A DNA stretch of 64,000 bases from an uncultured bacterium (GCA_964476585.1 CAYZBF010000002.1:66354-130353); one strand, 5' to 3'. Numbered from the stretch's first letter, positions 18,541 through 57,575 are shown. Notes: generated by a model from the sequence alone, not told the origin. Numbers and translations are program-made.

Positions 18541-19464
18541 TTAACCGACGGAGTCAACCATCTTTCTTATAGCTCTGATGTGCTTTGGTGTTGTTCCACA
18601 GCAACCTCCAATGATTGACACACCTAAAGAAACTAATTCTTTTGCTTTTTCTGCCATAAACTCTGGTGTCTCGGGATAAACAACAGTATTTCCTTTTATC
18701 TCTGGAATACCTGCGTTAGATTGAATGATAATTGGAAGATGGCTAAATTCCCTGAATTCCCTGGCTATCTTTATCATGTTATCTATACCGTTTCCACAGT
18801 TCGAACCTATGATATCGGCTCCTGCATTTGTAAGTCCTTTTACAGCTTCTTCTATATTTATACCCATCACAGTATAAAAACCTCTGGGGATGGGATCAAA
18901 TGTCATTGTTGCAATAACAGGGGTTGACGACGAAACAGTTTTCGCCGCTTTAACGGCAATTGTTGCCTCTCTCAAATCGGTCATTGTCTCTACGCATATA
19001 ATGTCAACGTCTGCACTGATGAGTGCCTTCATCTGTCTTTCAAAACTATCGTACATTTCGGAATCTGATGTATCCCCATAAGGCTCCAGGAGTTTTCCAC
19101 TTGGGCCGCAGGAACCAGAGATATAAGCGCATTCTCCTACGATTTTTCTTACAGCAAGGACAGCATTTCTGTTTATTTCCTCTGTTTTATCCGCAAGCGA
19201 ATAAAACGAAAGCTTCAAGGGAGACGCTCCAAAGGTATTGGTCTGAACTATATCAGCCCCTGCCTCAAGATAAAGACTGGCAATCTCATGAAGGATCGGG
19301 AGACGTGTAAGGTTAAAAGATTCCGGAGGTTCCCCTGCCCCAAGACCACGTTCCATAAGCATTGTTCCCATTGCTCCATCAGAAACAAGTATCTCGCCAT
19401 TCTTCAATCGCTTGAGAAGTCCTTCCACCCTACCTCCCATTTTTAAAAGTAACCGCAGATACAC
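18541..19464 (-). CDS. homocysteine-binding (MetH N-terminal-like, PF02574) methyltransferase module with intact Zn-site cysteines
   Basis: ILVSDGAMGTM, EAGADIVQTNTF, SNCGNG and IIGGCCGTTPKHI align with the MetH Hcy domain, including the three Zn-ligand Cys. The ATG at 19440 is the probable start. Confidence 0.8.
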   Translation of the reverse strand: MYLRLLLKMGGRVEGLLKRLKNGEILVSDGAMGTMLMERGLGAGEPPESFNLTRLPILHEIASLYLEAGADIVQTNTFGASPLKLSFYSLADKTEEINRNAVLAVRKIVGECAYISGSCGPSGKLLEPYGDTSDSEMYDSFERQMKALISADVDIICVETMTDLREATIAVKAAKTVSSSTPVIATMTFDPIPRGFYTVMGINIEEAVKGLTNAGADIIGSNCGNGIDNMIKIAREFREFSHLPIIIQSNAGIPEIKGNTVVYPETPEFMAEKAKELVSLGVSIIGGCCGTTPKHIRAIRKMVDSVG

Positions 19465-19536
19465 ACAGATGTTCGCAAATACAATTACTTCTAAAATTCA
19501 TTTAATCTGTGTCTATTTGTGTTCATCTGCGGTTAC
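19450..19536. repeat. palindromic intergenic element (TAACCGCAGAT ... ATCTGCGGTTA) between corrinoid-protein and Hcy-module genes; carries dispersed motif TGTGTTCATCTGCGG
   Basis: 10-bp perfect arms 19451-19460 and 19526-19535; the 14-mer is shared with 44949. Confidence 0.6.
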
Positions 19537-20183
19537 ACAAATTTTTTTGAGTTTTTTATAAGTTCTTTCACAGTTTCCACCGCGTTAACGCTATCATAGC
19601 CGTATGCATCAGCTCCTATCTCTTTTGCATATTCTTCTGAGACAGGAGCTCCACCAATTATTATTTTTATTTTTCCTATAAGACCCTCTTCCCTTAAAAG
19701 ATCCATAACATTCTTCATAACAGGCATCGTTGTTGTAAGAAGTGCAGACATACCTATAACCGTAGCATTTTCTTTCTTTGCGGTTTGGATGAACTTCAAG
19801 GGCGAAACATTGTTGCCAAGGTTTATAACTTCAAAGCCAGCACCCTTAAGCATAATACCTACAAGGTTCTTTCCTATATCATGTAAATCCCCTTGAACCG
19901 TCCCGATGACCACCTTTCCAATAATTGGTATCCCTTCTTGTATAAACATCGGTCTAAGTAGGTCCATTCCTGCATACATTGCTGTGGCAGCAAGAAGCAC
20001 ATCTGGAAGGAAGATTTCATGAGCCTTGTACTTTTTTCCTATTATGTCCATGCCATAAATCAGACCCTCATCAAGTATCTCCTTGGGGGTTATTCTCTCT
20101 TCTATCGCTTCTTTCGTTAATGCTCTTACCTTTTCATCATTGCCCGACTGTAAGCTCTCTCGTATCTTGTTTAATATATCCAT
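19533..20183 (-). CDS. cobalamin-binding corrinoid protein (B12 cap + Rossmann, DxHxxG)
   Basis: GDLHDIGKN motif and the MtmC/MtbC/MetH B12-binding domain architecture. Confidence 0.85.
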   Translation of the reverse strand: MDILNKIRESLQSGNDEKVRALTKEAIEERITPKEILDEGLIYGMDIIGKKYKAHEIFLPDVLLAATAMYAGMDLLRPMFIQEGIPIIGKVVIGTVQGDLHDIGKNLVGIMLKGAGFEVINLGNNVSPLKFIQTAKKENATVIGMSALLTTTMPVMKNVMDLLREEGLIGKIKIIIGGAPVSEEYAKEIGADAYGYDSVNAVETVKELIKNSKKFV

Positions 20184-20926
20184 TATGCTATAACTTCCTT
20201 GTTGTTATGTCCTGATTCTCTAAACAACCCCCTTATCCTATCTCTGCAGGAGTGTGTTTTGCATTGACTGCAGAAAGGATAAGAGTCTTCAAAGTTATGA
20301 ATCTCTTTCTCCCCGGAAACTATTACACCCGATATTGATTTTAATGGTTTCATTAGATAACTACCCAGGAGTGTGATACCAATATCCTCTGGATGCAGAA
20401 ATTCAAATAGTTTTTTTTGCCCGCTCATATGCCAACCGCAATAACCTGGACTATATCTTAAAATCCCTGTTGATGCATTAATCTCACCCTTTTTTGAGAG
20501 CAACTTTAAAAAATGGTATTCAACAATGTCGGCCGCCTTTTCAACTCCATCTGATGCAACAGAATCTAACATACTTCCGAGAGCCAACTCATTTGCTTTG
20601 AAGAGTTCATCTATCTTTTGACTCAACCTATCCCCAAGTGTGACGGCGAAAATAGCAAGATTTCCTGCCTCCCTGAAGATATCATCAAGGGGAGTCCTCT
20701 TTTCATTCAATCCTTCACCGGTGTAGATAGATTCAAACTCGGGTATGGATATTTCTGAAATGATACCTTTCGGATGAGAAAATTCAATAAAAAGTTCCAT
20801 TGCCCTGTTAAAGAGTGCTTCAATTTTCCGAGGTAACTCTCTGTCAATAGTGATACCTTGAGTTTTTAAGACGGTAACTCTACTCGGTTTAACATCATAG
20901 ATAGGGATCTCGATAATTTCTCTCAT
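20183..20926 (-). CDS. MetH activation (AdoMet-binding reactivation) domain-like protein, stand-alone
   Basis: Size and motifs (RYSPGYCGW) resemble PF02965, Met_synt_B12. Confidence 0.55.
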   Translation of the reverse strand: MREIIEIPIYDVKPSRVTVLKTQGITIDRELPRKIEALFNRAMELFIEFSHPKGIISEISIPEFESIYTGEGLNEKRTPLDDIFREAGNLAIFAVTLGDRLSQKIDELFKANELALGSMLDSVASDGVEKAADIVEYHFLKLLSKKGEINASTGILRYSPGYCGWHMSGQKKLFEFLHPEDIGITLLGSYLMKPLKSISGVIVSGEKEIHNFEDSYPFCSQCKTHSCRDRIRGLFRESGHNNKEVIA

Positions 20927-22383
20927 AAAGTTATCTCCGGGAGACTCTCCATTCCATAACGATGCGCCTCAAGTTTCATAAGTTTTATCAACTCTTTTTT
21001 TGTACTATCCGGAAGTCTTGAGGGTTCATAATCTTTAATTAGTTTCTCTACCTCACTATGAGCCCTTTCTAAAAGTGCTAAACCACCTTCCTCTTGCCAT
21101 CTCGCCCTATTTGCCCTGTCAATTACAGGCCCTGGGAAATAAAATTCTTCATGTAAATACCGACGCGTATGTTCTGATATTAAGAGGTGCTGTTCCCTTA
21201 AGAGTTCTTGGAATCTCGGGAGCGATGGAAAGTCCTCTTTGGGTTCAATTCCCTTTATCAGACGGAGTGCCATTCCACATATCTCATTATCAAGAACAAG
21301 CTTTTCAAGACTCTGGCAACTTTCGAAATCAAGCATCCCAGGCCCTGAAATGTTATTTATACCAGATAGAGTAGCAAGCACAGCACCCATTCCCGATTCA
21401 AGACCTGCCTGTGCATCAAGCTGCTTCGCATCGCTCAGCGATATATAGCCCTGAGTGGGGATACCCAGATATTTCCCGATCTCATTATATGCACAGTCTA
21501 TCATCTGTGTTTCTACAGCCCCCATTGGAGTCGTCTCATATCGGACATCAAATATTGCCGGTGAGCCGCCATAAAGGATAGGTGTTCCTGGATTTATAAA
21601 CTGGCTGATTACTATACCACTCAGAGTCTCAGCTGTATGCTGCACCAATGTCCCGACAAGGGTGACCGGTGCCATAAATCCCGATAATGGCATGGAAACA
21701 AATTCTACGGGGATTGAGTAGAGTGCACAGTCAACAACATTCTGGGATGTAACATCACTCCATTTAAGAGGTGACGTTGGGCAGCAGGAGAATATCGTAA
21801 GAGGTTTTAGTGCAAGTTCCTCTTTTGTCCCACGTACACCAATCTGAAAATCCTTCATTACATTGAATGATTCAATGGTAAAGGCTCCTGTGACAACAGG
21901 TTTTTCACAGTATAGAAGGCTTAAGAACAGCCTATAACTGTCTGAAATTTTTTCATTAATATCTGCTGGTATAAATGCTGTGCTCTGTGAAGCAATGTTA
22001 TTAAGCTGACTTATAACTTTTGTATGTCTGATATAATCCTCTGTATTTGGCTTACGAATCTTCTTAGTTTCACAGTCAAGGATATTTAATGCAGCTGAAC
22101 CAGGCGTAAAATATACATTATAATCCGAAAAGTGATGTGTTTCATTACCAAGAACATCATAGAGTTTAAATGAGCGCGGGACTGTTTCCAAAGCTTTATC
22201 AATAATTTCATCCTTTAGAATAACATGATAGTTCTCCATTTCCACATTTGCACCAAAATCCCCCAGCATAGAAAGGATATCCTCATTGTGAATCTCCACG
22301 CCAAGTTTACAAAGAACTTCCCTCGCTTCCCTTATTATCTTTTCTATAAGCTCATCGCTCAGAAATCTTAAAACAGGCCTCAT
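20923..22383 (-). CDS. MttB-superfamily methyltransferase (non-pyrrolysine; quaternary-amine:corrinoid methyltransferase type)
   Basis: A 486-aa uninterrupted ORF with no in-frame TAG. TIM-barrel MttB family similarity throughout. Confidence 0.8.
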   Translation of the reverse strand: MRPVLRFLSDELIEKIIREAREVLCKLGVEIHNEDILSMLGDFGANVEMENYHVILKDEIIDKALETVPRSFKLYDVLGNETHHFSDYNVYFTPGSAALNILDCETKKIRKPNTEDYIRHTKVISQLNNIASQSTAFIPADINEKISDSYRLFLSLLYCEKPVVTGAFTIESFNVMKDFQIGVRGTKEELALKPLTIFSCCPTSPLKWSDVTSQNVVDCALYSIPVEFVSMPLSGFMAPVTLVGTLVQHTAETLSGIVISQFINPGTPILYGGSPAIFDVRYETTPMGAVETQMIDCAYNEIGKYLGIPTQGYISLSDAKQLDAQAGLESGMGAVLATLSGINNISGPGMLDFESCQSLEKLVLDNEICGMALRLIKGIEPKEDFPSLPRFQELLREQHLLISEHTRRYLHEEFYFPGPVIDRANRARWQEEGGLALLERAHSEVEKLIKDYEPSRLPDSTKKELIKLMKLEAHRYGMESLPEITL

Positions 22384-22472
22384 TATCTACTCCTTTTAAA
22401 TTCATAATAATTTGCTTAATCATACATAAAATCTCCAAATATTGCAAGGAATTTTTTAAATACAAATGTCAC

Positions 22473-22502
22473 TTGACTTTTTTCTTTCTCCGCTATTATA
22501 AT
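22473..22502 (+). promoter_or_regulatory. sigma70-type promoter for the TetR gene (TTGACT-N17-TATAAT)
   Basis: TTGACT at 22473 and TATAAT at 22497. The -10 overlaps the left operator arm. Confidence 0.5.
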
Positions 22503-22532
22503 AATGACTGACCGTTCGGCCATTATTATAAT
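22495..22532. promoter_or_regulatory. perfect 12-bp inverted repeat ATTATAATAATG-N14-CATTATTATAAT (putative TetR operator)
   Basis: Seen directly. It sits in the divergent region between mttB-like (minus) and tetR (plus). Confidence 0.55.
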
Positions 22533-22568
22533 GAAAGTAAATCAAGGAAATTTTAAAGGAGTATTTCA

Positions 22569-23210
22569 GTGCCAAAGATTGTAAATAAAGAACAGCGTAA
22601 AAAAGAAATAGCTCTTGCTGCATTGGATATATTTGCAGAAAAGGGTTTTGAGGCAGCCACTATAAATGAAATAACCAGGTTTGCAGGAATAGGCAAAGGT
22701 ACCATCTATGAGTATTTCAAATCAAAGGATGACCTGATTTTCAACTCAATAAAGGTGTGGCTCGAACTTATAGAGAAAAAAACTAAAGATCAGATTGTTG
22801 AAATTAATGATCCTGCCCAGCGCCTTCGTACATTTGTACAGGCTTCAATGGAGGCTTTTATATCGGATGAACACGCTATGAAGCTTTCAATTGCTTTAAT
22901 GCAAATAACATTAAGTGAAACAAAGCCTTACATAGAAAAAAAAGTTTTTTTTGAGACACTTATGAATATGTCCAAAATTATTGTGGACATTCTTCAAGAT
23001 GGAGTATCTAAGGGGGTATTCAAACCGGAAGTATCAAAAAATGCCGAAAAGATAGCTGTTAACTTATTAGCATACCTTGATGGCATAAGCGCATATTATT
23101 GTATAAACAAAGCTCACATTAATCTCAAGAAACAGATTGATATCTTCCTCAAGCAGCTTATGGCAAGTATAATGATGCCCCAATCTACCCAAAAAAAAAG
23201 GAGAGTATGA
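22569..23210 (+). CDS. TetR/AcrR family transcriptional regulator
   Basis: N-terminal HTH (ATINEITRFAGIGKGTIYEYFKSKDDL). Confidence 0.9.
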   Translation: MPKIVNKEQRKKEIALAALDIFAEKGFEAATINEITRFAGIGKGTIYEYFKSKDDLIFNSIKVWLELIEKKTKDQIVEINDPAQRLRTFVQASMEAFISDEHAMKLSIALMQITLSETKPYIEKKVFFETLMNMSKIIVDILQDGVSKGVFKPEVSKNAEKIAVNLLAYLDGISAYYCINKAHINLKKQIDIFLKQLMASIMMPQSTQKKRRV

Positions 23211-31264: not shown

Positions 31265-31614
31265 TGGTGGAGGCGGCGGGAATCGAACCCGCGTCCGAAA
31301 TGGCTGTTTGAAAGCGTCTACATGCTTAGTGGTTGTTTTTCTCTCGCCTTCCCAACACCCAACCACAGGACTAAGAAAGGCTATGCCAGTAATTTTTCAT
31401 CCACAATCCCCTGGCAATGATTGCAGACTATTCTCCTTCTATGACACCCTACAAGAGAGTAGGAGAAGAACTCTCTCGCGGACGGGCAGCTAAATTAAGC
31501 TGCCAGAGCGTAATTAACGTTGCCGTTTATATTTATGACCACAGTTTTTCGAGTTATGGCAGCTCGGCATGCAACTTTCAATCCAATTCACTCCGTCGAG
31601 ACCTTTTCGCCCCC
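31265..31614 (-). ncRNA. ssrA: tmRNA (ssrA)
   Basis: The minus strand begins GGGGGCGAAAAGGTCTCGACGG and ends GGTTCGATTCCCGCCGCCTCCACCA, a tRNA-Ala-like T-arm and acceptor. The internal tag reading frame is ...GGC AAC GTT AAT TAC GCT CTG GCA GCT TAA (GNVNYALAA*). Confidence 0.9.
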
Positions 31615-31657: not shown

Positions 31658-31771
31658 GGAGACAATAGTCTTCAGTCTTTAGTCATAAGTCCTAAGTTAT
31701 TTTTTCTAAAACTTACAATAAATTTTTAAATTTGACTACTGACTATCGACTATAGACTGAAGACTATCTCC
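31658..31771. repeat. long imperfect palindrome (GGAGACAATAGTCTTCAGTCT ... AGACTGAAGACTATCTCC) built from inverted arrays of 7-bp GACTNNN units
   Basis: Arms at 31658-31678 and 31754-31771. Heptads AGTCTTC AGTCTTT AGTCATA AGTCCTA on the left; GACTACT GACTATC GACTATA GACTGAA GACTATC on the right. Confidence 0.75.
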
Positions 31772-31877
31772 TGCATTTATGCAGGAAATAAGGGGTTGAC
31801 AAACCCTACTTAGATATAAATGATATAGAAAATCTAATATCTCAAAGTTAAAATTAAATGCTTAATGAGGAGGTAGT

Positions 31878-33512
31878 ATGGGAAATTCTTTATACAAAAT
31901 AGATAAACCGTCAAATGAACCTATTTATCCTTATGGCCCCGGAAGTTTAGAGAAAAAGGAATTAAGAGAAAAAATAAAAGAACTTAAAGGTAAAGAGCTC
32001 GAGATTCCACTTATTATAGGTGGTGAAGAGATAATGACAGGAGATATTGGAGAATGTGTTATACCACATGAAAACGATAAGATTCTGGGCAAGTATCACA
32101 AGGCTGGAAAGGATGAAGTGGAGATGGCAATAAATGCAGCACTAAAAGCAAGGAAAAAGTGGTCAGAGACACCATGGGAACATCGTGCTTCTATCTTTAA
32201 GAGAGCAGCGGAACTACTGTCCGGGCCTTGGAGAAGCACCTTGAATGCAGCCTGCATGCTATGTCAGAGTAAGACGGTTTTTCAGGCCGAAATTGATTCT
32301 GCATGCGAACTAATAGATTTCTTCCGCTTTAATTCCTACTATATGACAGAGATTTACACCGAGCAGCCAAACTCACCAGGAGCAGTTTATAATAGATTGG
32401 AACATAGACCCCTTGAAGGATTTGTATTCGCTGTAACGCCATTCAACTTTGCTTCAATAGCAGGGAATCTTCCCACTTCACCCATTCTTATGGGTAATGT
32501 AACTGTCTGGAAACCAGCGTCTTCTGCAGTATATACGGCTTATTGGATAATGAAGTTATTACAGGAAGCAGGTGTTCCTGATGGAGTAATAAATTTTGTC
32601 CCTGGATCAGGTGGACAGGTTGGGCAACCTGCTCTCACCAATCTAAACCTTGCCGGTATCCATTTCACCGGTTCAACTGCAACATTCCAGTATATGTGGA
32701 AAACAATTGGGGAAAACATCATGAACTATAAGACCTATCCAAGAATCGTAGGAGAAACTGGTGGTAAAAACTTTATCTTCGTTCACGAAAGCGCTAACAT
32801 GAAAGAAGTGCTTACCGCACTTATAAGAGGAGCCTTTGAATATCAGGGACAGAAATGTTCTGCAGCTTCGCGTGCTTATATTCCTCTCACCATGTGGAAG
32901 AGTGGATTAAAAGAGGAACTTATCCAAACAACTGAAGAACTAAAAATGGGGTCTCCTGAGGATTTTAGAAACTTCCTGACTGCAGTAATAGATAAGGCTG
33001 CATTCAATTCAATAGTGAAATATATCGACGATGCAAAAGAATCTTCTGATGCTCTGGTAATTACCGGTGGAGAATATGACGATTCAAAAGGATACTTTAT
33101 AAAACCAACAATAATCCTGACGACAAACCCAAGTTATAAATCAATGAAAGAAGAGATCTTTGGTCCAGTCCTCACCATCTATGTCTACAAAGACGATGAA
33201 TATGAAGAAACGTTAGAAATCTGTGATAAGACCTCTCCCTACGCCCTAACTGGTTCTATATTCGCAAAAAACCGCAATGCAATTATAAAGGCTGAAAAAC
33301 TCCTCACACATGCTGCCGGTAACTTTTATATAAACGATAAACCTACAGGAGCAGTAGTGGGACAGCAACCATTTGGAGGGAGCCGGGCATCAGGGACAAA
33401 TGATAAAGCAGGAAGTAAGTTGAACCTCCTTAGATGGGTCACTCCAAGAACAATAAAAGAAAACTTAGCTCCTCCAACTGACTACCGTTATCTATTTATG
33501 CAGGATAAGTAA
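31878..33512 (+). CDS. aldehyde dehydrogenase family protein, delta-1-pyrroline-5-carboxylate dehydrogenase-like (~540-aa form)
   Basis: ALDH catalytic region (FEYQGQKCSA, ETGGKN) and overall similarity to the Thermus/Bacillus-type P5CDH. Confidence 0.75.
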   Translation: MGNSLYKIDKPSNEPIYPYGPGSLEKKELREKIKELKGKELEIPLIIGGEEIMTGDIGECVIPHENDKILGKYHKAGKDEVEMAINAALKARKKWSETPWEHRASIFKRAAELLSGPWRSTLNAACMLCQSKTVFQAEIDSACELIDFFRFNSYYMTEIYTEQPNSPGAVYNRLEHRPLEGFVFAVTPFNFASIAGNLPTSPILMGNVTVWKPASSAVYTAYWIMKLLQEAGVPDGVINFVPGSGGQVGQPALTNLNLAGIHFTGSTATFQYMWKTIGENIMNYKTYPRIVGETGGKNFIFVHESANMKEVLTALIRGAFEYQGQKCSAASRAYIPLTMWKSGLKEELIQTTEELKMGSPEDFRNFLTAVIDKAAFNSIVKYIDDAKESSDALVITGGEYDDSKGYFIKPTIILTTNPSYKSMKEEIFGPVLTIYVYKDDEYEETLEICDKTSPYALTGSIFAKNRNAIIKAEKLLTHAAGNFYINDKPTGAVVGQQPFGGSRASGTNDKAGSKLNLLRWVTPRTIKENLAPPTDYRYLFMQDK

Positions 33513-33514
33513 AA

Positions 33515-34726
33515 ATGAAAAAAGCAACTGTTGGCACTTTAGGGGAAGAGAAAAGAGTAGATTGTAATATACATCTTGAGTTAAAAAACACCGGTGGTAT
33601 CAATCTTGATCTTAGTTCCAAGGTCGAGGTTATGTATGGTAATTCCATACGTGAGATTGTCCACAGAGAGTTATCATTCTTTGGGATAGAAAATACCAAG
33701 ATAGTGATTGAGGATTACGGAGCGTATCCCTTCGTACTGCAAGCAAGACTGGAAACCGTTGTAAAGAGGGCCCTTCCTGATATAGGTAAGGAATTCCTGC
33801 CAGAGTTTTCAGAAAAGTGTCTCTATAAATCTTCAAGAGATAGATTTCGAAGGACTCGTCTGTATCTACCCGGGAATTCCCCCAACTTTATGATTAATGC
33901 CGGGCTACATAAGCCTGATGGAATTATACTGGATTTAGAGGATTCTGTTGCACCATTCGAAAAAGATGCTGCAAGGGCTTTGGTGCGGAATGCCCTCAGG
34001 GTTGTCAACTTTCACAATGCAGAACGTATGGTTAGAATTAACCAGTTCCCAATGGGACTTCTGGACCTCGAGTGCGTAATCCCGCACAACACCCATCTCA
34101 TACTCATTCCTAAATGTGAATCCAAAGAGACAGTCCATAAGGTAGATGAAAAAATAAAGGAAATCAAGAAAAAAAATAATATTGAACAGGAGATATTCTT
34201 AATGCCTATTATCGAGAGTGCATTGGGTGTAATTAGTGCATATGAGATAGCCTCAGCATCTCCCAATGTAGTCGCTCTCACTATTGGTCTTGAAGACTAT
34301 ACAGCTGACATAAGTACTCATCGGACTAAGGAAGGCAGAGAGAGTTTCCTTGCGCGTGGAAGTTTAGTAAACGCTGCACGCGCAGCAGGGGTACAACCCA
34401 TTGACACAGTATTCACAGATGTAGATGATGCTGAAGGGTTAAGGGAGGTAACCCTTGAAGCAAAATCCCTTGGATTTGTAGGAAAGGGCTGTATCCATCC
34501 TCGCCAGATAGAAGTAATACACGAGGCATTTGCACCAACAGAGGAAGAGATTGAAAAGGCAAAGAAAATAGTTAGGGCTTTTGAAGAAGCTAAATTACAC
34601 AATCTCTCTGTAGTCTCACTTGGCAGCAAGATGATAGATCCTCCAGTTGTAAAAAGGTCAGAGCAGACAGTCAAACTTGCAATCAAAACAGGAAATTTAG
34701 ATGAGAATTGGAGGGATAATGAATGA
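33515..34726 (+). CDS. citE: fused citrate-lyase gamma-like (CitD) + beta (CitE, citryl-ACP/CoA-ester lyase) protein
   Basis: Residues ~1-90 resemble CitD (VGTL..., ...ARLETVVKRAL). The remainder is CitE-like (LYLPGNSPNFM, ILDLEDSV, LTIGLEDY, GCIHPRQI). Confidence 0.8.
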   Translation: MKKATVGTLGEEKRVDCNIHLELKNTGGINLDLSSKVEVMYGNSIREIVHRELSFFGIENTKIVIEDYGAYPFVLQARLETVVKRALPDIGKEFLPEFSEKCLYKSSRDRFRRTRLYLPGNSPNFMINAGLHKPDGIILDLEDSVAPFEKDAARALVRNALRVVNFHNAERMVRINQFPMGLLDLECVIPHNTHLILIPKCESKETVHKVDEKIKEIKKKNNIEQEIFLMPIIESALGVISAYEIASASPNVVALTIGLEDYTADISTHRTKEGRESFLARGSLVNAARAAGVQPIDTVFTDVDDAEGLREVTLEAKSLGFVGKGCIHPRQIEVIHEAFAPTEEEIEKAKKIVRAFEEAKLHNLSVVSLGSKMIDPPVVKRSEQTVKLAIKTGNLDENWRDNE

Positions 34727-36287
34727 AGATTATAAGTTGAAGAAGAATGCAGCAGGGAGATTGATCCCTACTATAATAAACGGTAAAATTTCTATCCCCT
34801 ATCAGGGGATAGGCAAATACAAACCAACAGGCAAAAAGGCTGCACCCCCCATAGCAAGTTGCGCGGATTATCCTGCCAATGGAAATAAGGTAGTAAAGGA
34901 TCTTAAAACAGCATTAACTGAGACAGGAATAAAAGACGGTATGACTATCTCAACCCACCACCACTTCAGGAATGGAGATTATGTTGCAAACGCCGTCTTT
35001 GAGGCAGCTGCAGAAATAGGGGTAAAAAACCTATGCTGGTTTCCCTCAGCATCCTTTCCCTGTCATGCTCCCATAATTGAACATCTAAAATCAGGTATGG
35101 TTCATCACATTGAAGGCAGTATGAATGGACCTTTAGGAGAGTTTGCCTCCAGAGGAGGAATGAAGGGTATGGGGGTCCTGCGCTCCCATGGTGGTCGATA
35201 TCAAGCTGTGCAGGATGGAGAAGTCCATATAGATATTGCAGTCATTGCTGCTCCGACTGCAGATTCCTTCGGTAATGCTAATGGCCTTTTAGGGGAATCA
35301 GCCTGCGGATTACTCGGTTTCGCACTAGCTGATTCCCAATATGCTGATAAGGTTATTGTTGTAACAGATAATCTGATTGACTTCCCCTGCCACCCATGGC
35401 AGATACAGGGTAACCACGTGGATTATGTGGTAGTAATGGATAAGATTGGCGACCCCGAGAAGATAGTATCGGGAACCACAAGGATAACAAAAAGCCCTGA
35501 TAGGCATCGTATTGCAAGAATGGCAGCACAGTTCTTAAGAGATACTGGTATAATGAGGAATGGATTTTCCTTCCAGGCAGGGGCAGGTGGCACATCACTT
35601 GCCTTTGTTGATTACCTTTCCGGATATATGCGGGAAGCAGGAGTAACAGCACGATTTATAAGGGGTGGAAGTACTAAATTCCTGGTAGATATGTTGGAAG
35701 AAGGGCTTACTGATTACATACTTGATGGACAGACATTTGACCTTAAAGGCGTCCAGTCAATGAGGGAGCATCCAAACCATGCGGATACCAGCCCCTTCAC
35801 AAGTTACAACTATCACGGGAAAGGGATGTTTGCGACGATGGTCGATGCAGCAATCCTGGGTGCAACAGAGGTAGATATCAATTTTAACGGGAATGTGGTT
35901 ACTCATTCAGATGGGATGTTACTTCATGGGATAGGAGGATGGCAGAATACACTATTCTCCAAATGCACCATACTCACCGTTCCTACCTTTAGAAACAGGA
36001 TTCCCATTATTGTAGACGAGGTTACAACTCTAGTAGGACCCGGCGAACTCATTGACGTAGTAGTCACAGAGAGGGGAATTGCAATAAATCCCAGAAGGAA
36101 AGACCTTTTATGTTCAGTGAAGGATTCAAATCTCCCAATACGTTCCATAGAAGAGTTGAAAGAAGAAGCAGATGAGATATGTGGTGGTAAACCCCAAAAG
36201 CCAAAATTAGGAGATAGAATAATCGCCGCAATCAAATGGGTCGATGGCACAGTGATTGATGCAGTAAAAATAGTCGAGGGTCCATAG
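34701..36287 (+). CDS. citF: citrate lyase alpha subunit (citrate CoA-transferase) CitF
   Basis: GMTISTHHHFRNGD, FPCHAPIIEHL, FGNANG and a C-terminal DRIIAAIKWVDGTVIDAV match E. coli CitF blocks. Confidence 0.85.
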   Translation: MRIGGIMNEDYKLKKNAAGRLIPTIINGKISIPYQGIGKYKPTGKKAAPPIASCADYPANGNKVVKDLKTALTETGIKDGMTISTHHHFRNGDYVANAVFEAAAEIGVKNLCWFPSASFPCHAPIIEHLKSGMVHHIEGSMNGPLGEFASRGGMKGMGVLRSHGGRYQAVQDGEVHIDIAVIAAPTADSFGNANGLLGESACGLLGFALADSQYADKVIVVTDNLIDFPCHPWQIQGNHVDYVVVMDKIGDPEKIVSGTTRITKSPDRHRIARMAAQFLRDTGIMRNGFSFQAGAGGTSLAFVDYLSGYMREAGVTARFIRGGSTKFLVDMLEEGLTDYILDGQTFDLKGVQSMREHPNHADTSPFTSYNYHGKGMFATMVDAAILGATEVDINFNGNVVTHSDGMLLHGIGGWQNTLFSKCTILTVPTFRNRIPIIVDEVTTLVGPGELIDVVVTERGIAINPRRKDLLCSVKDSNLPIRSIEELKEEADEICGGKPQKPKLGDRIIAAIKWVDGTVIDAVKIVEGP

Positions 36288-36341: not shown

Positions 36342-36369
36342 GACATTCGACTACTGACTAATGACTCAT
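36342..36369. repeat. 7-bp tandem repeat array GACATTC GACTACT GACTAAT GACTCAT
   Basis: Seen directly; shares GACTACTGACTA with the array at 31734. Confidence 0.65.
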
Positions 36370-36657: not shown

Positions 36658-37251
36658 TTATTTTTGAATCCGATCTCTTATTACAAACGGTTCCTTCATT
36701 TCTTCGGGTTTAAGTATTTTCCTCGGTTTATAGCCTAAAATAAAGTATTTCGTTCCTATCAAATTCAATAAATCAACGTCTTTAAAGAATGTCCATATCA
36801 GAGCACCAACTTCTGCCAGACCCCACATAAAGAGTTCTGTGGTTACTGGCTTTGTTGGATTGGTAAAATTAATATATGTCCTTTTACATGTTCCCTTGGT
36901 CACGTCGTAACCCGTATGAAAACTCATAATAAATTTCTCCGAATCTAAGATCTCTGCCAGAGACCACTTATAGCCTTGATTTAAAAATATACGGCTTCTT
37001 CTATCAGATTCATCTACAATAAAGAGACCATCATCTACAAGTATTTGACTGACCGAATAGAAGAGTCTGACGATATCCCATGGATTGAAATGCGGTGTAG
37101 AAAGTCCATAAATTAATGCAATATCAAACTTTTCTTTTAGTTCGTGTACTTCTCTTGCATCTATAGTCAAAATCCTTACATCTTTATCGAGAATCTCACT
37201 TCCCCACTCTTTACCCATATTCAAGGCATCTTTTCTTAAATCTGTTATCAT
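36658..37251 (-). CDS. hypothetical protein
   Basis: ORF track only; no confident family assignment. Confidence 0.4.
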   Translation of the reverse strand: MITDLRKDALNMGKEWGSEILDKDVRILTIDAREVHELKEKFDIALIYGLSTPHFNPWDIVRLFYSVSQILVDDGLFIVDESDRRSRIFLNQGYKWSLAEILDSEKFIMSFHTGYDVTKGTCKRTYINFTNPTKPVTTELFMWGLAEVGALIWTFFKDVDLLNLIGTKYFILGYKPRKILKPEEMKEPFVIRDRIQK

Positions 37252-37361: not shown

Positions 37362-38018
37362 TTAACACTCAACTATTTTTCCTGCTGTTATATTTCTTTC
37401 TTTATCGCCTCTTCTATTAGAATAAAATGCATCTGATGAATATGTGTCTTCAGGAAAGGTATAAACGGTTCTCACTCCCATCTCCTCCATTTCCCTCACA
37501 TTTGCTTCCTTAAGATCAAGAAAATAACGAGCCTTTTCAATGTGAACACCAGGGATTCCTTCAATTTTAAACAAATCATATATCTCAACTCCAACCTCAT
37601 AGTTTTCTCTTCTAATGGAGGGTCCAAAGGCCACAATCCAGTCAGAGATGTCCAATTTCAAATCATTTTTCATTTTTAGAAAAAACTTTCTTGTGATTCG
37701 GAGCAATGTTCCCCTCCATCCTGCATGCAAGATTGCTAAAATTTTCTTCCCGGTGTGGTAAAGTACGACAGGGAGACAATCCGCTGTTTTTACGTATATG
37801 ATAATATCTTTCTCGTCTGTAAAAATTCCATCTCCGACCAGTTTAACTCCTGGGTAAGCTCTGTGAATTACTGAAGAATGAATCTGTCCAAGTCCACACG
37901 GCCTCCCTTGGATCTCCTTCAGTGGATCAAAGGATTTTGTCCCCTGCAAAACCAGAGCGTCCGAATCAAAGCTTAACTCATACCAGATTTTGCCTTCTCT
38001 TTCTTTCCTTTCCCACAT
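37362..38018 (-). CDS. pgeF: peptidoglycan editing factor PgeF (YfiH/DUF152, polyphenol-oxidase-like)
   Basis: ILHAGWRGT motif and family size. Confidence 0.75.
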   Translation of the reverse strand: MWERKEREGKIWYELSFDSDALVLQGTKSFDPLKEIQGRPCGLGQIHSSVIHRAYPGVKLVGDGIFTDEKDIIIYVKTADCLPVVLYHTGKKILAILHAGWRGTLLRITRKFFLKMKNDLKLDISDWIVAFGPSIRRENYEVGVEIYDLFKIEGIPGVHIEKARYFLDLKEANVREMEEMGVRTVYTFPEDTYSSDAFYSNRRGDKERNITAGKIVEC

Positions 38019-56231: not shown

Positions 56232-57575
56232 ATGGTACAAGGACCAATGTTGATAGTTATATTAGTATGCAGTGTGTTATTCATAGTGGTGATGACTGCA
56301 AAGGTTAGATTGAATGCTTTCATCGTGCTGCTTTTAGCAGCTTTTGGGGTCGGACTATTTACCGGTCTGCCATTAGATAAAATTACTGGGGCGATAAGAA
56401 ACGGCTTTGGAGGAACCCTGGGCTATATTGGAATTGTAATTATTGCAGGGACTATTATTGGCACAATCTTAGAAAAGACAGGAGCAGCTCTCAGTATGGC
56501 TAACTGCATTTTAAGAATTGTGGGTAAGAAGCGAGCCGATTTAGCCGTGAGTATAGCAGGATATATCGTATCTATTCCTGTATTTTGTGATTCAGGTTTT
56601 GTCATACTAACGCCCTTAAATAAAGCACTTGCAGAAAGAACTAAGCGTTCCATGGCGGTTATGGGAACTGCGCTGGCAACAGGCCTTTATGCAACTCATG
56701 TGTTTGTGCCACCTACTCCCGGACCCATTGCTGCCGCAGGGCTCCTGGGAGCCGATTTAGGTAGGGTTATCCTATTGGGACTCATTGTTTCTGTCCCGGC
56801 TATGCTCATTGGTTGGGTTTGGGCCAGAAAAATTGGAGGAAAATTTGACATTGAAGCCAAGCCTGAATTCACATATGATGAATTAATAGCAAAATATGGC
56901 GGATTTCCAAATGCAGCTCACTCCTTTGCACCTCTGGTTATTCCAATATTACTGATAGCATTAAAATCAGTGGCAGCCTTTCCTACCCATCCTTTCGGGA
57001 CAGGAACTACATCATCAATCATTCAATTTATTGGTGACCCAGTAACAGCTCTTTTAATCGGTGTCTTTATAGCACTGTCGTTGGTTAAGAAATGGAATGA
57101 AGAAGTATTAAGGGGCTGGATAGGACATGGGATAGTCAATGCTGCTGTAATACTTGCTATCACCGGTGCTGGTGGGTCTTTCGGACAGATCATTAAAACC
57201 ACTCCAATTGGTGATTATCTGGGTAACATATTAGCACCTCTTGGACTTGGAATCTTCTTACCATTCATCATAGCCGCCGCATTAAAGACTGCCCAGGGTT
57301 CATCAACCGTGGCTATGATTACAACACCTGCAATCATTGGTTCATTACTGCCCATGTTAGGGTTAGCTGGTCCCTGGGGTAGAGTGCTTACAGTCCTTGC
57401 AATTGGTGCAGGAGCAATGACTGTTTCCCACGCAAATGATAGTTACTTCTGGGTTGTATCTCGCTTTTCGGGCATGGATGTTCCAACTGCTTATAAGGTT
57501 TATACTACAGCTACCTTGGTCCTCGGATTAGTCTCTATGGCAGTAATCGCTATAATGGCAGTGATCATTCTATAG
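56232..57575 (+). CDS. GntP family permease
   Basis: ~12-TM protein with GntP/DsdX family similarity. Confidence 0.8.
   Translation: MVQGPMLIVILVCSVLFIVVMTAKVRLNAFIVLLLAAFGVGLFTGLPLDKITGAIRNGFGGTLGYIGIVIIAGTIIGTILEKTGAALSMANCILRIVGKKRADLAVSIAGYIVSIPVFCDSGFVILTPLNKALAERTKRSMAVMGTALATGLYATHVFVPPTPGPIAAAGLLGADLGRVILLGLIVSVPAMLIGWVWARKIGGKFDIEAKPEFTYDELIAKYGGFPNAAHSFAPLVIPILLIALKSVAAFPTHPFGTGTTSSIIQFIGDPVTALLIGVFIALSLVKKWNEEVLRGWIGHGIVNAAVILAITGAGGSFGQIIKTTPIGDYLGNILAPLGLGIFLPFIIAAALKTAQGSSTVAMITTPAIIGSLLPMLGLAGPWGRVLTVLAIGAGAMTVSHANDSYFWVVSRFSGMDVPTAYKVYTTATLVLGLVSMAVIAIMAVIIL

What the first reader, a model, noticed from the sequence alone, without database searches (positions are those of the whole stretch)
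31878..36287. P5C-dehydrogenase-like ALDH co-operonic with citrate-lyase-type CitD-CitE fusion and CitF; the CitD acyl-carrier serine motif appears to be missing
Three + strand genes are separated by 2 nt (ALDH-citDE) or overlap by 26 nt (citDE-citF). They encode an ALDH that looks like the ~540-aa P5CDH form, a fused gamma-beta (CitD-CitE) protein, and the CitF alpha subunit. CitE and CitF align block-for-block with E. coli citrate lyase.

In canonical CitD the 2'-(5''-phosphoribosyl)-3'-dephospho-CoA prosthetic group sits on the Ser of a conserved AGTLES(S/G)D motif. Here the matching stretch reads VGTLGEEKRVD, and by eye there is no Ser at or near the expected position. No citC (ligase) or citX/citG (prosthetic-group synthesis) genes are nearby. 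That points to a CoA-ester-dependent lyase/transferase pair that keeps a vestigial ACP domain, rather than a classical citrate lyase. Citramalate or malyl-CoA-type chemistry is possible.

The pairing with a proline/glutamate-pathway dehydrogenase is unusual. It could link P5C or glutamate catabolism to a C5/C6 acid lyase step in amino-acid fermentation.
Basis: partly seen in the sequence, partly recalled or inferred. Interest (0 to 1): 0.62.

Follow-up and report, generated by a model that had tools for sequence, protein, structure and literature searches.

The report
Citrate-lyase-type operon lacking its cofactor serine
A small lineage of uncultured WOR-3 bacteria carries a citrate-lyase-like enzyme pair whose built-in carrier domain has lost the serine that normally holds the enzyme's covalent cofactor, so it probably runs on free coenzyme A; the gene pair sits directly behind an ordinary proline-pathway dehydrogenase gene.

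Summary
Three co-directional genes encode a bona fide P5C dehydrogenase (TIGR01236, 777 bits), a CitD-CitE fusion and CitF. CitF more likely starts at 34719, giving an 8-nt overlap rather than 26.

The fusion itself is known. It was noted in Ignavibacterium album in 2012, and I found it in at least 592 species genomes across many phyla. The Ser loss is the new part.
- 108 of 108 other family members carry an invariant R-S-D-C motif. The Ser sits one residue closer to the conserved Asp than E. coli Ser14.
- A monophyletic clade of 12 protein clusters, which includes the window and at least two WOR-3 MAG proteins, has Val, Leu or Thr there.
- The carrier domain is not decaying: dN/dS is about 0.15-0.28 and pLDDT is 86-95.
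- CitE and CitF motifs are intact.
- No citC, citX or citG lies in the window or in about 88 related loci.

The most likely mechanism is a lyase/transferase pair working on free acyl-CoA. The substrate is unresolved.

The ALDH link is clade-specific. The same P5CDH is solitary in sister WOR-3 genomes, which suggests insertion of citDE-citF behind it. Elsewhere the family sits with LeuCD/HacAB-like, LeuB-like and HD genes.

Verdict: a new variant of a known kind, of moderate interest.

The parts
31878..33512 (+). L-glutamate gamma-semialdehyde (P5C) dehydrogenase, 544 aa; first gene of the operon
   Evidence: TIGR01236 equivalog at 776.9 bits (cutoff 613.6) and PF00171. It is 67-88% identical to proteins that sources name P5CDH in WOR-3, Cloacimonadota, KSB1, Calditrichota and Firmicutes. 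A GAGGAGG ribosome-binding site lies 5 nt upstream of the ATG.
33515..34726 (+). CitD-CitE fusion, 403 aa: N-terminal citrate-lyase ACP-like domain joined to a citryl-CoA-lyase-type beta subunit
   Evidence: PF06857, PF03328 and PF15617; best NCBIfam hit citE TIGR01588 at 281 bits, below cutoff; 2-nt gap after the ALDH stop. AF2 mean pLDDT 85.5. The closest solved folds are all free-CoA-ester lyases: malyl-CoA lyase, CLYBL, Mtb CitE and citramalyl-CoA lyase.
33518..33772 (+). ACP-like (CitD/MdcC family) domain, residues 2-86
   Evidence: PF06857 E=3.9e-16. pLDDT 86-95 with a beta-beta-beta-alpha-beta-alpha topology. dN/dS 0.15-0.28 within the clade. Its identity relative to the CitE domain is no lower than in Ser-bearing relatives.
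33557..33559 (+). Codon 15 (GTA, Val) at the position that is Ser in every other family member; the presumed prosthetic-group attachment site is lost
   Evidence: Position 15 is S in 108/108 other members and V7/L4/T1 in the clade. The neighbouring R14 is 108/108 elsewhere but variable in the clade. D16 and C17 are kept. E. coli Ser14 aligns one residue upstream.
33842..34681 (+). CitE (HpcH/HpaI TIM-barrel lyase) domain, residues 110-389
   Evidence: TIGR01588 over residues 110-389. The motifs DLEDSV, VRINQ, PIIES, GLEDYT and MIDPPVVKR are invariant or nearly so across both clades, and the first four are also largely conserved in E. coli CitE.
34719..36287 (+). CitF, citrate-lyase alpha subunit (acyl-CoA/ACP:citrate transferase type), 522 aa from the preferred start; the longest ORF begins at 34701
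   Evidence: PF04223 at 477 bits and TIGR01584 at 516 bits, above the 501 cutoff. phmmer against E. coli CitF gives E=5.5e-117. It is 71% identical to the CitF of Ser-bearing relatives, with only 4 clade-specific switched positions.
31796..31824 (+). Possible sigma-70-like promoter of the operon (TTGACA-17-AATGAT)
   Evidence: Consensus scan, 10/12 matches. The number of such sites in the region is not above the shuffled expectation, so this is weak evidence.

Best explanation
This is a three-gene operon of an uncultured WOR-3-related bacterium. Gene 1 is a standard NAD-dependent P5C dehydrogenase. Genes 2 and 3 are a derived form of the citrate-lyase machinery: a CitF-type CoA-transferase and a CitE-type acyl-CoA lyase that carries an N-terminal CitD-like domain.

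In this clade the carrier domain has lost the serine that is invariant in the rest of the fused family, and with it the constraint on the neighbouring Arg. It therefore cannot bear a covalently attached phosphoribosyl-dephospho-CoA arm on that residue.

The inferred mechanism has two steps. CitF moves CoA from free acetyl-CoA onto the hydroxy-acid substrate, releasing acetate. The CitE domain then cleaves the resulting acyl-CoA into a 2-oxoacid and regenerated acetyl-CoA. Acetyl-CoA thus acts as a diffusible catalytic cofactor in place of a tethered one. The carrier domain is kept for a structural or assembly role.

What is shown: the gene identities, the operon structure, the Ser loss being derived and clade-specific, the continued constraint on all three domains, and the absence of citC, citX and citG nearby.

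What is inferred: the use of free CoA, and the substrate. Citrate is the default by family assignment, but another 2-hydroxy acid is about equally likely. Co-transcription with P5CDH most likely arose when citDE-citF inserted downstream of a pre-existing solitary P5CDH gene. A metabolic link at the glutamate/2-oxoglutarate/oxaloacetate node is possible but untested.
For: - Gene identities.
- R14-S15-D16-C17 are conserved in 108/108, 108/108, 107/108 and 108/108 other family members. The clade has V, L or T at position 15 and a variable position 14. Only 2 of 403 positions are at least 95% conserved elsewhere yet switched in the clade.
- About 130 of 150 representatives at 50% identity carry [RK]SD at this site.
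- The clade is monophyletic and nested in the family; its sister, P0015, keeps Ser.
- The ACP domain is still constrained: dN/dS 0.15-0.28, no excess divergence and pLDDT 86-95.
- CitE motifs are invariant, and CitF is 71% identical to relatives with 4 switched sites.
- No CitC, CitX or CitG homolog appears in the window or in about 88 related loci. Unbiased neighbour clustering finds no unexplained conserved neighbour that could be one.
- Every solved structure similar to the CitE domain is a lyase of free CoA esters.
- From established knowledge (Dimroth and Eggerer 1975; Heider 2001, recalled, not read here): isolated citrate-lyase alpha and beta subunits accept acetyl-CoA and citryl-CoA in place of the ACP-bound forms.
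- Operon conservation across two different flank contexts.
- The ALDH is solitary in sister WOR-3 genomes, and in L089 it is followed directly by the same Cu-oxidase_4 neighbour.
Against: - No biochemical data exist for any member of the fused family.
- Whether the family's R-S-D-C Ser really carries a prosthetic group was not shown. It lies one residue off the canonical position, and no citX or citG was seen near any member.
- I could not search whole genomes, so a separate CitD plus CitX/CitG/CitC elsewhere is not excluded.
- The phmmer screen used only E. coli seeds, and its sensitivity to distant CitX was not controlled.
- Classical subunits use free CoA esters with poor affinity, so efficient function would need adaptation. 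I could not detect any; few clade-specific changes exist.
- The NJ tree rests on the 120 closest homologs only.
Confidence: 0.55

Rival explanations
1. The whole fused CitDE family, with or without the Ser, never uses the classical prosthetic group. The invariant R-S-D-C Ser then has another role, structural or catalytic, or carries a different modification made by a non-CitX enzyme. On this view the Ser loss in the window clade is not a switch from a tethered to a free cofactor.
For: No citC, citX or citG lies within 10 kb of any of about 80 family loci from more than 10 phyla, whereas canonical systems cluster them (PMC2996986). The family Ser is preceded by Arg rather than Glu and sits one residue closer to the Asp than E. 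coli Ser14.
Against: Absolute conservation of R-S-D in 108/108 sequences and in most of the 150 distant representatives. The motif lies in the same Gly-to-Asp loop as the canonical attachment Ser, which is best explained by an attachment or recognition motif. Accessory genes can lie elsewhere, as in Geobacter. Whole genomes were not searched.
Confidence: 0.2
2. Classical mechanism with the carrier supplied in trans. A separate holo-CitD, with CitX, CitG and CitC, is encoded elsewhere in the genome and serves CitE and CitF. The fused Ser-less domain is then only a docking or scaffold module.
For: Only 64 kb of the genome is visible. The ACP-like domain is conserved, so it still interacts with something.
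Against: No second PF06857-like ORF and no citC/X/G in the window or in the clade's other contigs. A fused family that elsewhere keeps its own Ser has no obvious need for a second carrier.
Confidence: 0.1
3. The lyase pair has changed substrate, to (S)- or (R)-citramalate, malate or another chiral 2-hydroxy acid. It is functionally tied to P5CDH in a Pro/Arg/Glu catabolic route.
For: - The sister lineage (L092) has a LarA-family 2-hydroxyacid racemase/epimerase gene 94 nt upstream of citDE-citF.
- The wider family is linked to LeuCD/HacAB-like isomerases and a LeuB/homoisocitrate-DH-like dehydrogenase rather than to citrate-fermentation genes.
- The CitE domain is below the citE equivalog cutoff.
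- The ALDH-citDE-citF trio is kept through a rearrangement of its flanks.
Against: - CitF passes the citF equivalog cutoff, and citE is the best CitE-domain hit, ahead of RipC/Ccl and malyl-CoA lyase models.
- The ALDH is a typical P5CDH that is solitary in close relatives.
- No glutamate mutase, methylaspartase, mesaconase, PRODH or similar gene lies in the window.
- The LarA link rests on one 6-kb contig.
Confidence: 0.3
4. The citDE-citF genes of this clade are non-functional relics on the way to loss.
For: Loss of a residue that is invariant elsewhere. Loss of the usual gene neighbourhood.
Against: Intact ORFs in 12 clusters from independent samples, spanning 71-88% identity. dN/dS is 0.09-0.28. 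Catalytic motifs are invariant. Translational coupling is preserved.
Confidence: 0.04

Closest known systems
Classical citrate lyase CitDEF of E. coli / Klebsiella pneumoniae (EC 4.1.3.6), with CitC, CitX and CitG
   Same: Homologous alpha (CitF, 38% identity, above the TIGR01584 cutoff), beta (CitE, 38%) and gamma (CitD, 28%) modules in the same D-E-F gene order. The expected two-step chemistry is the same: acyl transfer, then C-C cleavage.
   Different: Gamma is fused to beta. The attachment Ser is absent: E. coli Ser14 aligns with Arg14, and the family's Ser position holds Val15. No citC, citX or citG is nearby. The operon partner is a P5CDH instead of citrate transport and regulation genes.
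Fused CitD-CitE plus CitF of Ignavibacterium album (IALB_1147/IALB_1146; Liu et al. 2012, PMC3362086) and its relatives, found in at least 592 species genomes
   Same: Same architecture and family (58-69% identity). No adjacent citC, citX or citG. CitF lies immediately downstream.
   Different: Those proteins keep the invariant R-S-D-C motif. They usually sit in an IsoDH-HD-aconitase-family(x2 or +PrpD)-CitDE-CitF cluster. The window clade has Val, Leu or Thr in place of Ser, none of those neighbours, and a P5CDH upstream.
Stand-alone CitE-like acyl-CoA lyases acting on free CoA esters (M. tuberculosis CitE, human CLYBL, malyl-CoA/beta-methylmalyl-CoA lyase, (S)-citramalyl-CoA lyase Ccl/RipC)
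   Same: Same TIM-barrel fold and best structural matches. They work without any ACP, which is how the window's CitE domain is proposed to work.
   Different: Those enzymes have no CitD domain and no CitF partner. The window's CitE domain scores higher against citE (281 bits) than against RipC/Ccl (159 bits) or malyl-CoA lyase (62 bits).
Citramalate lyase of Clostridium tetanomorphum (EC 4.1.3.22)
   Same: From recalled knowledge: a CitDEF-like three-subunit complex acting on a different hydroxy acid. This shows that the scaffold can change substrate.
   Different: It uses the covalent prosthetic group on its ACP.

Membership tests
Citrate lyase holoenzyme (CitDEF, EC 4.1.3.6) | CitF alpha subunit (citrate:acetyl-ACP transferase family) | tested here: met
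   TIGR01584 at 516.4 bits, above the 501.45 cutoff; PF04223 at 477 bits.
Citrate lyase holoenzyme (CitDEF, EC 4.1.3.6) | CitE beta subunit at equivalog level | tested here: inconclusive
   TIGR01588 is the best hit, but 280.9 bits is below the 443.4 cutoff. The fold and motifs are conserved.
Citrate lyase holoenzyme (CitDEF, EC 4.1.3.6) | CitD acyl-carrier domain of the PF06857 family | tested here: met
   PF06857 at 59.5 bits, above the 25.1 cutoff. TIGR01608 at 59.5 bits is just below its 63.5 cutoff.
Citrate lyase holoenzyme (CitDEF, EC 4.1.3.6) | Serine in the N-terminal loop that carries 2'-(5''-phosphoribosyl)-3'-dephospho-CoA | tested here: not met
   No Ser in residues 1-33. The family Ser position is Val15, and E. 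coli Ser14 aligns with Arg14.
Citrate lyase holoenzyme (CitDEF, EC 4.1.3.6) | Accessory genes citC (ligase), citX (holo-ACP synthase) and citG (prosthetic-group precursor synthase) | tested here: not met
   Absent from the 64-kb window and from about 88 related loci by phmmer with E. coli seeds and by neighbour clustering. Presence elsewhere in the genome could not be tested.
Fused CitDE/CitF family (I. album type) | N-terminal PF06857 domain fused to PF03328, with CitF immediately downstream | tested here: met
   58-82% identity to family members.
Fused CitDE/CitF family (I. album type) | Invariant R-S-D-C motif | tested here: not met
   The window has R-V-D-C. The clade has V, L or T at the Ser position.
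Fused CitDE/CitF family (I. album type) | Neighbourhood of IsoDH, HD and aconitase-family/PrpD genes (seen in about half of the loci) | tested here: not met
   No homologs in the window or in the clade's loci.
P5C dehydrogenase (L-glutamate gamma-semialdehyde dehydrogenase, TIGR01236 type) | Full-length match above the equivalog cutoff and close identity to annotated P5CDHs | tested here: met
   776.9 bits against a 613.6 cutoff; 67-88% identity to P5CDHs of several phyla. Substrate specificity was not tested experimentally.
Free-CoA CitE-like lyases (Ccl/RipC, malyl-CoA lyase, CLYBL) | Equivalog-level match to RipC/Ccl or malyl-CoA lyase models | tested here: not met
   NF038242 at 158.8 bits (cutoff 375) and NF041626 at 61.8 bits (cutoff 500). 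Similarity is at the fold level only.

The most novel reading that the evidence does not exclude
Two linked claims. First, a natural citrate-lyase-type complex has given up its covalently tethered cofactor and runs on diffusible acetyl-CoA, while keeping the carrier domain as a scaffold. Second, the much larger fused CitDE/CitF family it derives from is not a citrate-fermentation enzyme. That family occurs in at least 592 species genomes from more than 10 phyla, is never next to citC/X/G, and is usually next to two LeuCD/HacAB-type hydro-lyases (or one plus PrpD), a LeuB/homoisocitrate-DH-like dehydrogenase and an HD protein. It would instead be the lyase of an undescribed, widespread tricarboxylate or 2-oxoacid chain-shortening pathway, possibly with a non-canonical way of loading its Ser.
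Probability: 0.3. Interest if true: 0.7.

Novelty: new variant of a known kind. Interest (0 to 1): 0.5.

Why it matters
Citrate lyase is the textbook case of an enzyme that needs a dedicated covalent CoA-like arm and three accessory genes to make and prime it. A conserved natural variant without the attachment serine would show that the arm is dispensable in vivo. It would also offer a simple two-protein, CoA-recycling C-C lyase for study or engineering.

The comparison also exposes a very large, uncharacterised fused CitDE/CitF family in uncultured phyla. Genome annotation calls it "citrate lyase", and this label feeds metabolic reconstructions such as reverse-TCA claims. The family's gene context instead suggests a different tricarboxylate pathway.

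Tried and rejected
1. Looked for CitC, CitX and CitG with E. coli seeds in the window and in all fetched loci. There were no hits.
2. Searched the PDB by sequence for a CitD-like structure on which to map the Ser loop. Nothing was found at E<=10, so no residue-level structural mapping was possible. The AF2 output gives no coordinates.
3. Tested whether the ACP domain is decaying. This was rejected: identity ratios and dN/dS show constraint.
4. Looked for compensating changes in CitF and CitE. Only 4 and 1 clade-specific switched positions exist, and they cannot be interpreted without a complex structure.
5. Looked in the window for proline, arginine or glutamate pathway partners (PRODH, glutamate mutase and similar) and for the family's usual IsoDH, aconitase, PrpD and HD partners. 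None were found.
6. Searched the literature for a homocitrate lyase, for a Ser-less CitD, for citrate lyase in WOR-3 and for fused citDE. Only the I. album genome paper mentions the fusion.
7. Checked for a riboswitch or other known RNA upstream of the operon. Only the tmRNA was found.
8. Considered the invariant Cys17 as an alternative acyl carrier. I set this aside because more distant family members have Leu, Val or Ala there.

Full report
**Observation**

The region contains three co-directional + strand ORFs at 31878-33512, 33515-34726 and 34701-36287.
- The first is a 544-aa aldehyde dehydrogenase. It matches the TIGR01236 P5C-dehydrogenase equivalog model at 776.9 bits (cutoff 613.6).
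- The second, 403 aa, combines a CitD/MdcC-type ACP domain (PF06857, residues 2-86, 59.5 bits) with an HpcH/HpaI-CitE lyase domain (PF03328, residues 113-329). Its best NCBIfam hit is citE, at 281 bits and below the 443 cutoff.
- The third is CitF: PF04223 at 477 bits, and TIGR01584 at 516 bits, above the 501 cutoff.

Identity to the E. coli proteins is 38% for CitF, 38% for CitE and 28% for CitD.

The ALDH stop and the citDE start are 2 nt apart. The reported 26-nt citDE/citF overlap comes from the longest ORF. A GGAGGG ribosome-binding site at 34710-34715 precedes an ATG at 34719. That start gives the same 8-nt ATGAATGA overlap and roughly 521-aa CitF seen in all close relatives.

**The missing serine**

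The window protein has no Ser in residues 1-33. I aligned it with 120 homologs. The other 108 sequences carry an invariant motif, R14-S15-D16-C17, conserved in 108/108, 108/108, 107/108 and 108/108 sequences. The window protein and its 11 closest 90%-identity clusters have Val (7), Leu (4) or Thr (1) at position 15 and a variable residue at 14, while keeping D16 and C17. Only two of 403 positions are at least 95% conserved elsewhere yet switched in this clade, and the Ser is one of them.

Pairwise phmmer, MAFFT and a family HMM all align E. coli G10 and D16 with the family's G10 and D16. E. coli Ser14 then falls opposite the family's Arg14, and the family Ser falls opposite E. coli Gly15. The family Ser therefore lies in the same Gly-to-Asp loop as the canonical attachment Ser but one residue closer to the Asp.

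It is not correct for the architecture in general.

**How general the family is**

The CitE-CitD fusion was already noted for Ignavibacterium album IALB_1147, with CitF as IALB_1146, by Liu et al. 2012 (PMC3362086). A scan of one genome per species found at least 592 genomes encoding a relative. They span WOR-3, Ignavibacteria/Melioribacteraceae, KSB1, Cloacimonadota, Gemmatimonadota, Zixibacteria, Eisenbacteria, Planctomycetota, Anaerolineales, Aminicenantes and others. Every member outside the window clade keeps the S-D dipeptide.

I also ran an exhaustive profile search with the ACP domain against 1.84 billion representatives. It gave 1066 hits at E<=0.001. About 130 of the best 150 show [RK]-S-D. 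Rare exceptions are P0325 (R-A-D), P0375 (R-L-D) and a small group of short stand-alone proteins with Q-P-Q-D-C.

An NJ tree rooted with E. coli CitD+CitE places the 12 Ser-less clusters as a monophyletic group. Its sister is a Cloacimonadota-labelled protein, P0015, that still has R-S-D-C. The loss is therefore derived.

**Whether the carrier domain is a dead remnant**

It is not.
- Within the clade, ACP-domain identity at a given CitE-domain identity is as high as in Ser-bearing lineages, or higher.
- Nei-Gojobori dN/dS for the ACP domain is 0.15-0.28, against 0.09-0.11 for the CitE domain. dS is near saturation.
- AlphaFold2 predicts a confident beta-beta-beta-alpha-beta-alpha domain (pLDDT 86-95). 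Residue 15 sits at the end of the loop before strand 17-23.
- The CitE motifs DLEDSV, VRINQ, PIIES, GLEDYT and MIDPPVVKR are conserved across both clades, and the first four are also largely conserved in E. coli.
- CitF is 71% identical to the CitF of Ser-bearing relatives, with only four clade-specific switched positions.

The genes are clearly functional.

**Accessory genes**

phmmer with E. coli CitC, CitX and CitG found nothing in the six-frame translation of the window. It also found nothing among 1,238 ORFs from the window plus about 88 related loci.

An unbiased all-against-all clustering of neighbours gives no unexplained conserved neighbour that could be a divergent accessory gene.

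Two caveats apply. Only E. coli seeds were used, and whole genomes could not be searched. Canonical systems do cluster these genes (Geobacter bemidjiensis citCDEFXG, PMC2996986).

**Genomic context**

In the Ser-bearing family the recurrent neighbourhood is IsoDH - HD-domain protein - aconitase-family hydro-lyase(s) - (PrpD-like) - CitDE - CitF.
- The I. album hydro-lyase scores 891 bits on the homoaconitase model TIGR00139 (cutoff 530).
- In lineages without PrpD there are two LeuCD/HacAB-type enzymes.
- The dehydrogenase is closest to the homoisocitrate/isopropylmalate dehydrogenase models, though below their cutoffs.

This looks like a 2-oxoacid chain-elongation module with a lyase in place of the synthase. 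It does not look like a citrate-fermentation locus.

None of these partners occurs in the window or in the Ser-less clade's contigs. Instead, every clade member with enough sequence has the P5CDH gene immediately upstream: L003, L005, L007, L009 and L093, with the upstream gene cut by the contig edge in L004, L006 and L008. This holds even where the flanks differ; L005 has PolA upstream and a phosphoribosyltransferase downstream.

**The ALDH**

It is 67-70% identical to proteins annotated as P5CDH in Cloacimonadota, KSB1, Calditrichota and even Firmicutes. That marks it as a conservative housekeeping-type enzyme.

In WOR-3 relatives whose ALDH is 71-77% identical, the gene stands alone.
- In L089 it is followed directly by the convergent Cu-oxidase_4 (PF02578) gene. 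The same gene lies just beyond citF in the window (37362-38018) and in L003.
- In L090 and L091 it sits between cobalt-transport genes and the era gene.

The simplest history is that citDE-citF was inserted behind a resident, solitary P5CDH gene, or lost from that site in the sister lineage. The unit has since been kept together. This weakens the case for a dedicated P5C-to-lyase pathway but does not exclude one.

The rest of the window is housekeeping: the dcw cluster, ligA, nadB/nadC, uvrB, hprK, murA and others.

**Mechanism**

The CitD-like domain cannot be modified at the family's conserved Ser, and no accessory genes are in view. Every solved homolog of the CitE domain is a lyase of free CoA thioesters: malyl-CoA lyase, CLYBL, M. 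tuberculosis CitE and citramalyl-CoA lyase. From recalled literature (Dimroth and Eggerer 1975; Heider 2001), isolated citrate-lyase alpha and beta subunits accept acetyl-CoA and citryl-CoA.

I therefore consider the following scheme most likely (confidence about 0.55):
1. CitF transfers CoA from free acetyl-CoA to the substrate acid.
2. The CitE domain cleaves the acyl-CoA and regenerates acetyl-CoA.
3. The carrier domain is retained for assembly.

The substrate is open. Citrate is the default by family models. Two observations leave other 2-hydroxy acids, such as citramalate, malate or homocitrate-type compounds, about equally plausible: the LarA-like 2-hydroxyacid racemase beside the sister lineage's genes (L092) and the LeuCD/LeuB-like context of the wider family.

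**Rivals**
- The fused family never uses the classical arm, so the Ser loss is not a mechanistic switch (0.2).
- A holo-CitD is supplied in trans from elsewhere in the genome (0.1).
- The substrate has changed and there is a true metabolic coupling to P5CDH (0.3; this is not exclusive of the main mechanism).
- The genes are pseudogenising (0.04; contradicted by the constraint data).

**Verdict**

The feature is a new variant of a known kind: a citrate-lyase-type system whose carrier has lost its attachment serine, in a small WOR-3-related clade. Interest is moderate (0.5).

The larger surprise lies outside the finding's coordinates. The huge fused CitDE/CitF family is routinely annotated as citrate lyase, yet it has a gene context and motif that do not match classical citrate lyase, and it lacks adjacent cofactor-loading genes.

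Noticed in passing
window 31265-31614 (-): tmRNA gene (tag peptide GNVNYALAA), divergent from the ALDH gene. Rfam RF00023 at 193.8 bits. The same tmRNA-ALDH arrangement occurs in L003 and L007.
   Followed up: yes
window 31667-31768 and 36349-36369; L003 8169-8264; L007 7873-8067: Arrays of a 7-nt unit, AGTCNNN x4 followed by the inverted GACTNNN x5, form a long imperfect hairpin between the tmRNA and ALDH genes (DNA fold -22.7 kcal/mol, z = -6.8). The feature is conserved in two syntenic relatives. In the window a third GACTNNN x3 array lies just after citF, so the motif brackets the operon. Its function is unknown; it could be a regulatory site or a REP-like element.
   Followed up: partly
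L002 2389-12886; L010 5614-12770; L013 762-8404; L081 320-8631 and about 40 further loci: The Ser-bearing fused CitDE/CitF family has a conserved neighbourhood in many phyla: a LeuB/homoisocitrate-DH-like dehydrogenase, a small HD-domain protein, and two LeuCD/HacAB-type hydro-lyases (or one plus a PrpD-like dehydratase). The I. album hydro-lyase scores 891 bits on the homoaconitase model. This suggests an undescribed tricarboxylate or 2-oxoacid pathway rather than citrate fermentation.
   Followed up: partly
L092 1514-5772: The Ser-bearing sister lineage of the window clade (P0015, labelled Cloacimonadota) has a LarA-family (PF09861) putative 2-hydroxyacid racemase/epimerase gene 94 nt upstream of citDE-citF. 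This hints at a chiral hydroxy-acid substrate in this branch. The evidence is a single 6-kb contig.
   Followed up: partly
P0325, P0375, P0338, P0300; P0356, P0366, P0385, P0380 (representative search): Rare other departures from the R-S-D motif: R-A-D, R-L-D, K-N-D and R-T-D. There is also a group of short, roughly 90-aa stand-alone CitD-like proteins with Q-P-Q-D-C or K-K-G-D and no Ser at the site. These are possible independent losses of the attachment residue.
   Followed up: no
window 18541-23210: A cluster on the - strand comprises an MttB-superfamily methyltransferase (486 aa), a MetH-activation-like protein, a corrinoid-binding protein and a homocysteine S-methyltransferase-family protein, with a divergent TetR regulator. 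It looks like a quaternary-amine (for example glycine- or proline-betaine) demethylation system, about 10 kb from the P5CDH operon.
   Followed up: no
window 36658-37251 (-): This 197-aa ORF has no Pfam hit. It is 64% identical to residues 92-282 of the 286-aa SAM-methyltransferase that occupies the same position in L003. The window copy lacks the N-terminal ~91 residues and may be a truncated gene.
   Followed up: partly
L089 6127-7693 (-): A complete 16S rRNA gene lies immediately upstream of the solitary P5CDH gene in the WOR-3 MAG GCA_034658955.1. It would be useful for placing the lineage.
   Followed up: no
window 56232-57575 (+): A GntP-family permease with weaker similarity to the CitMHS citrate-transporter family lies 20 kb downstream of the operon. 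It is the only candidate organic-acid transporter seen in the window.
   Followed up: no
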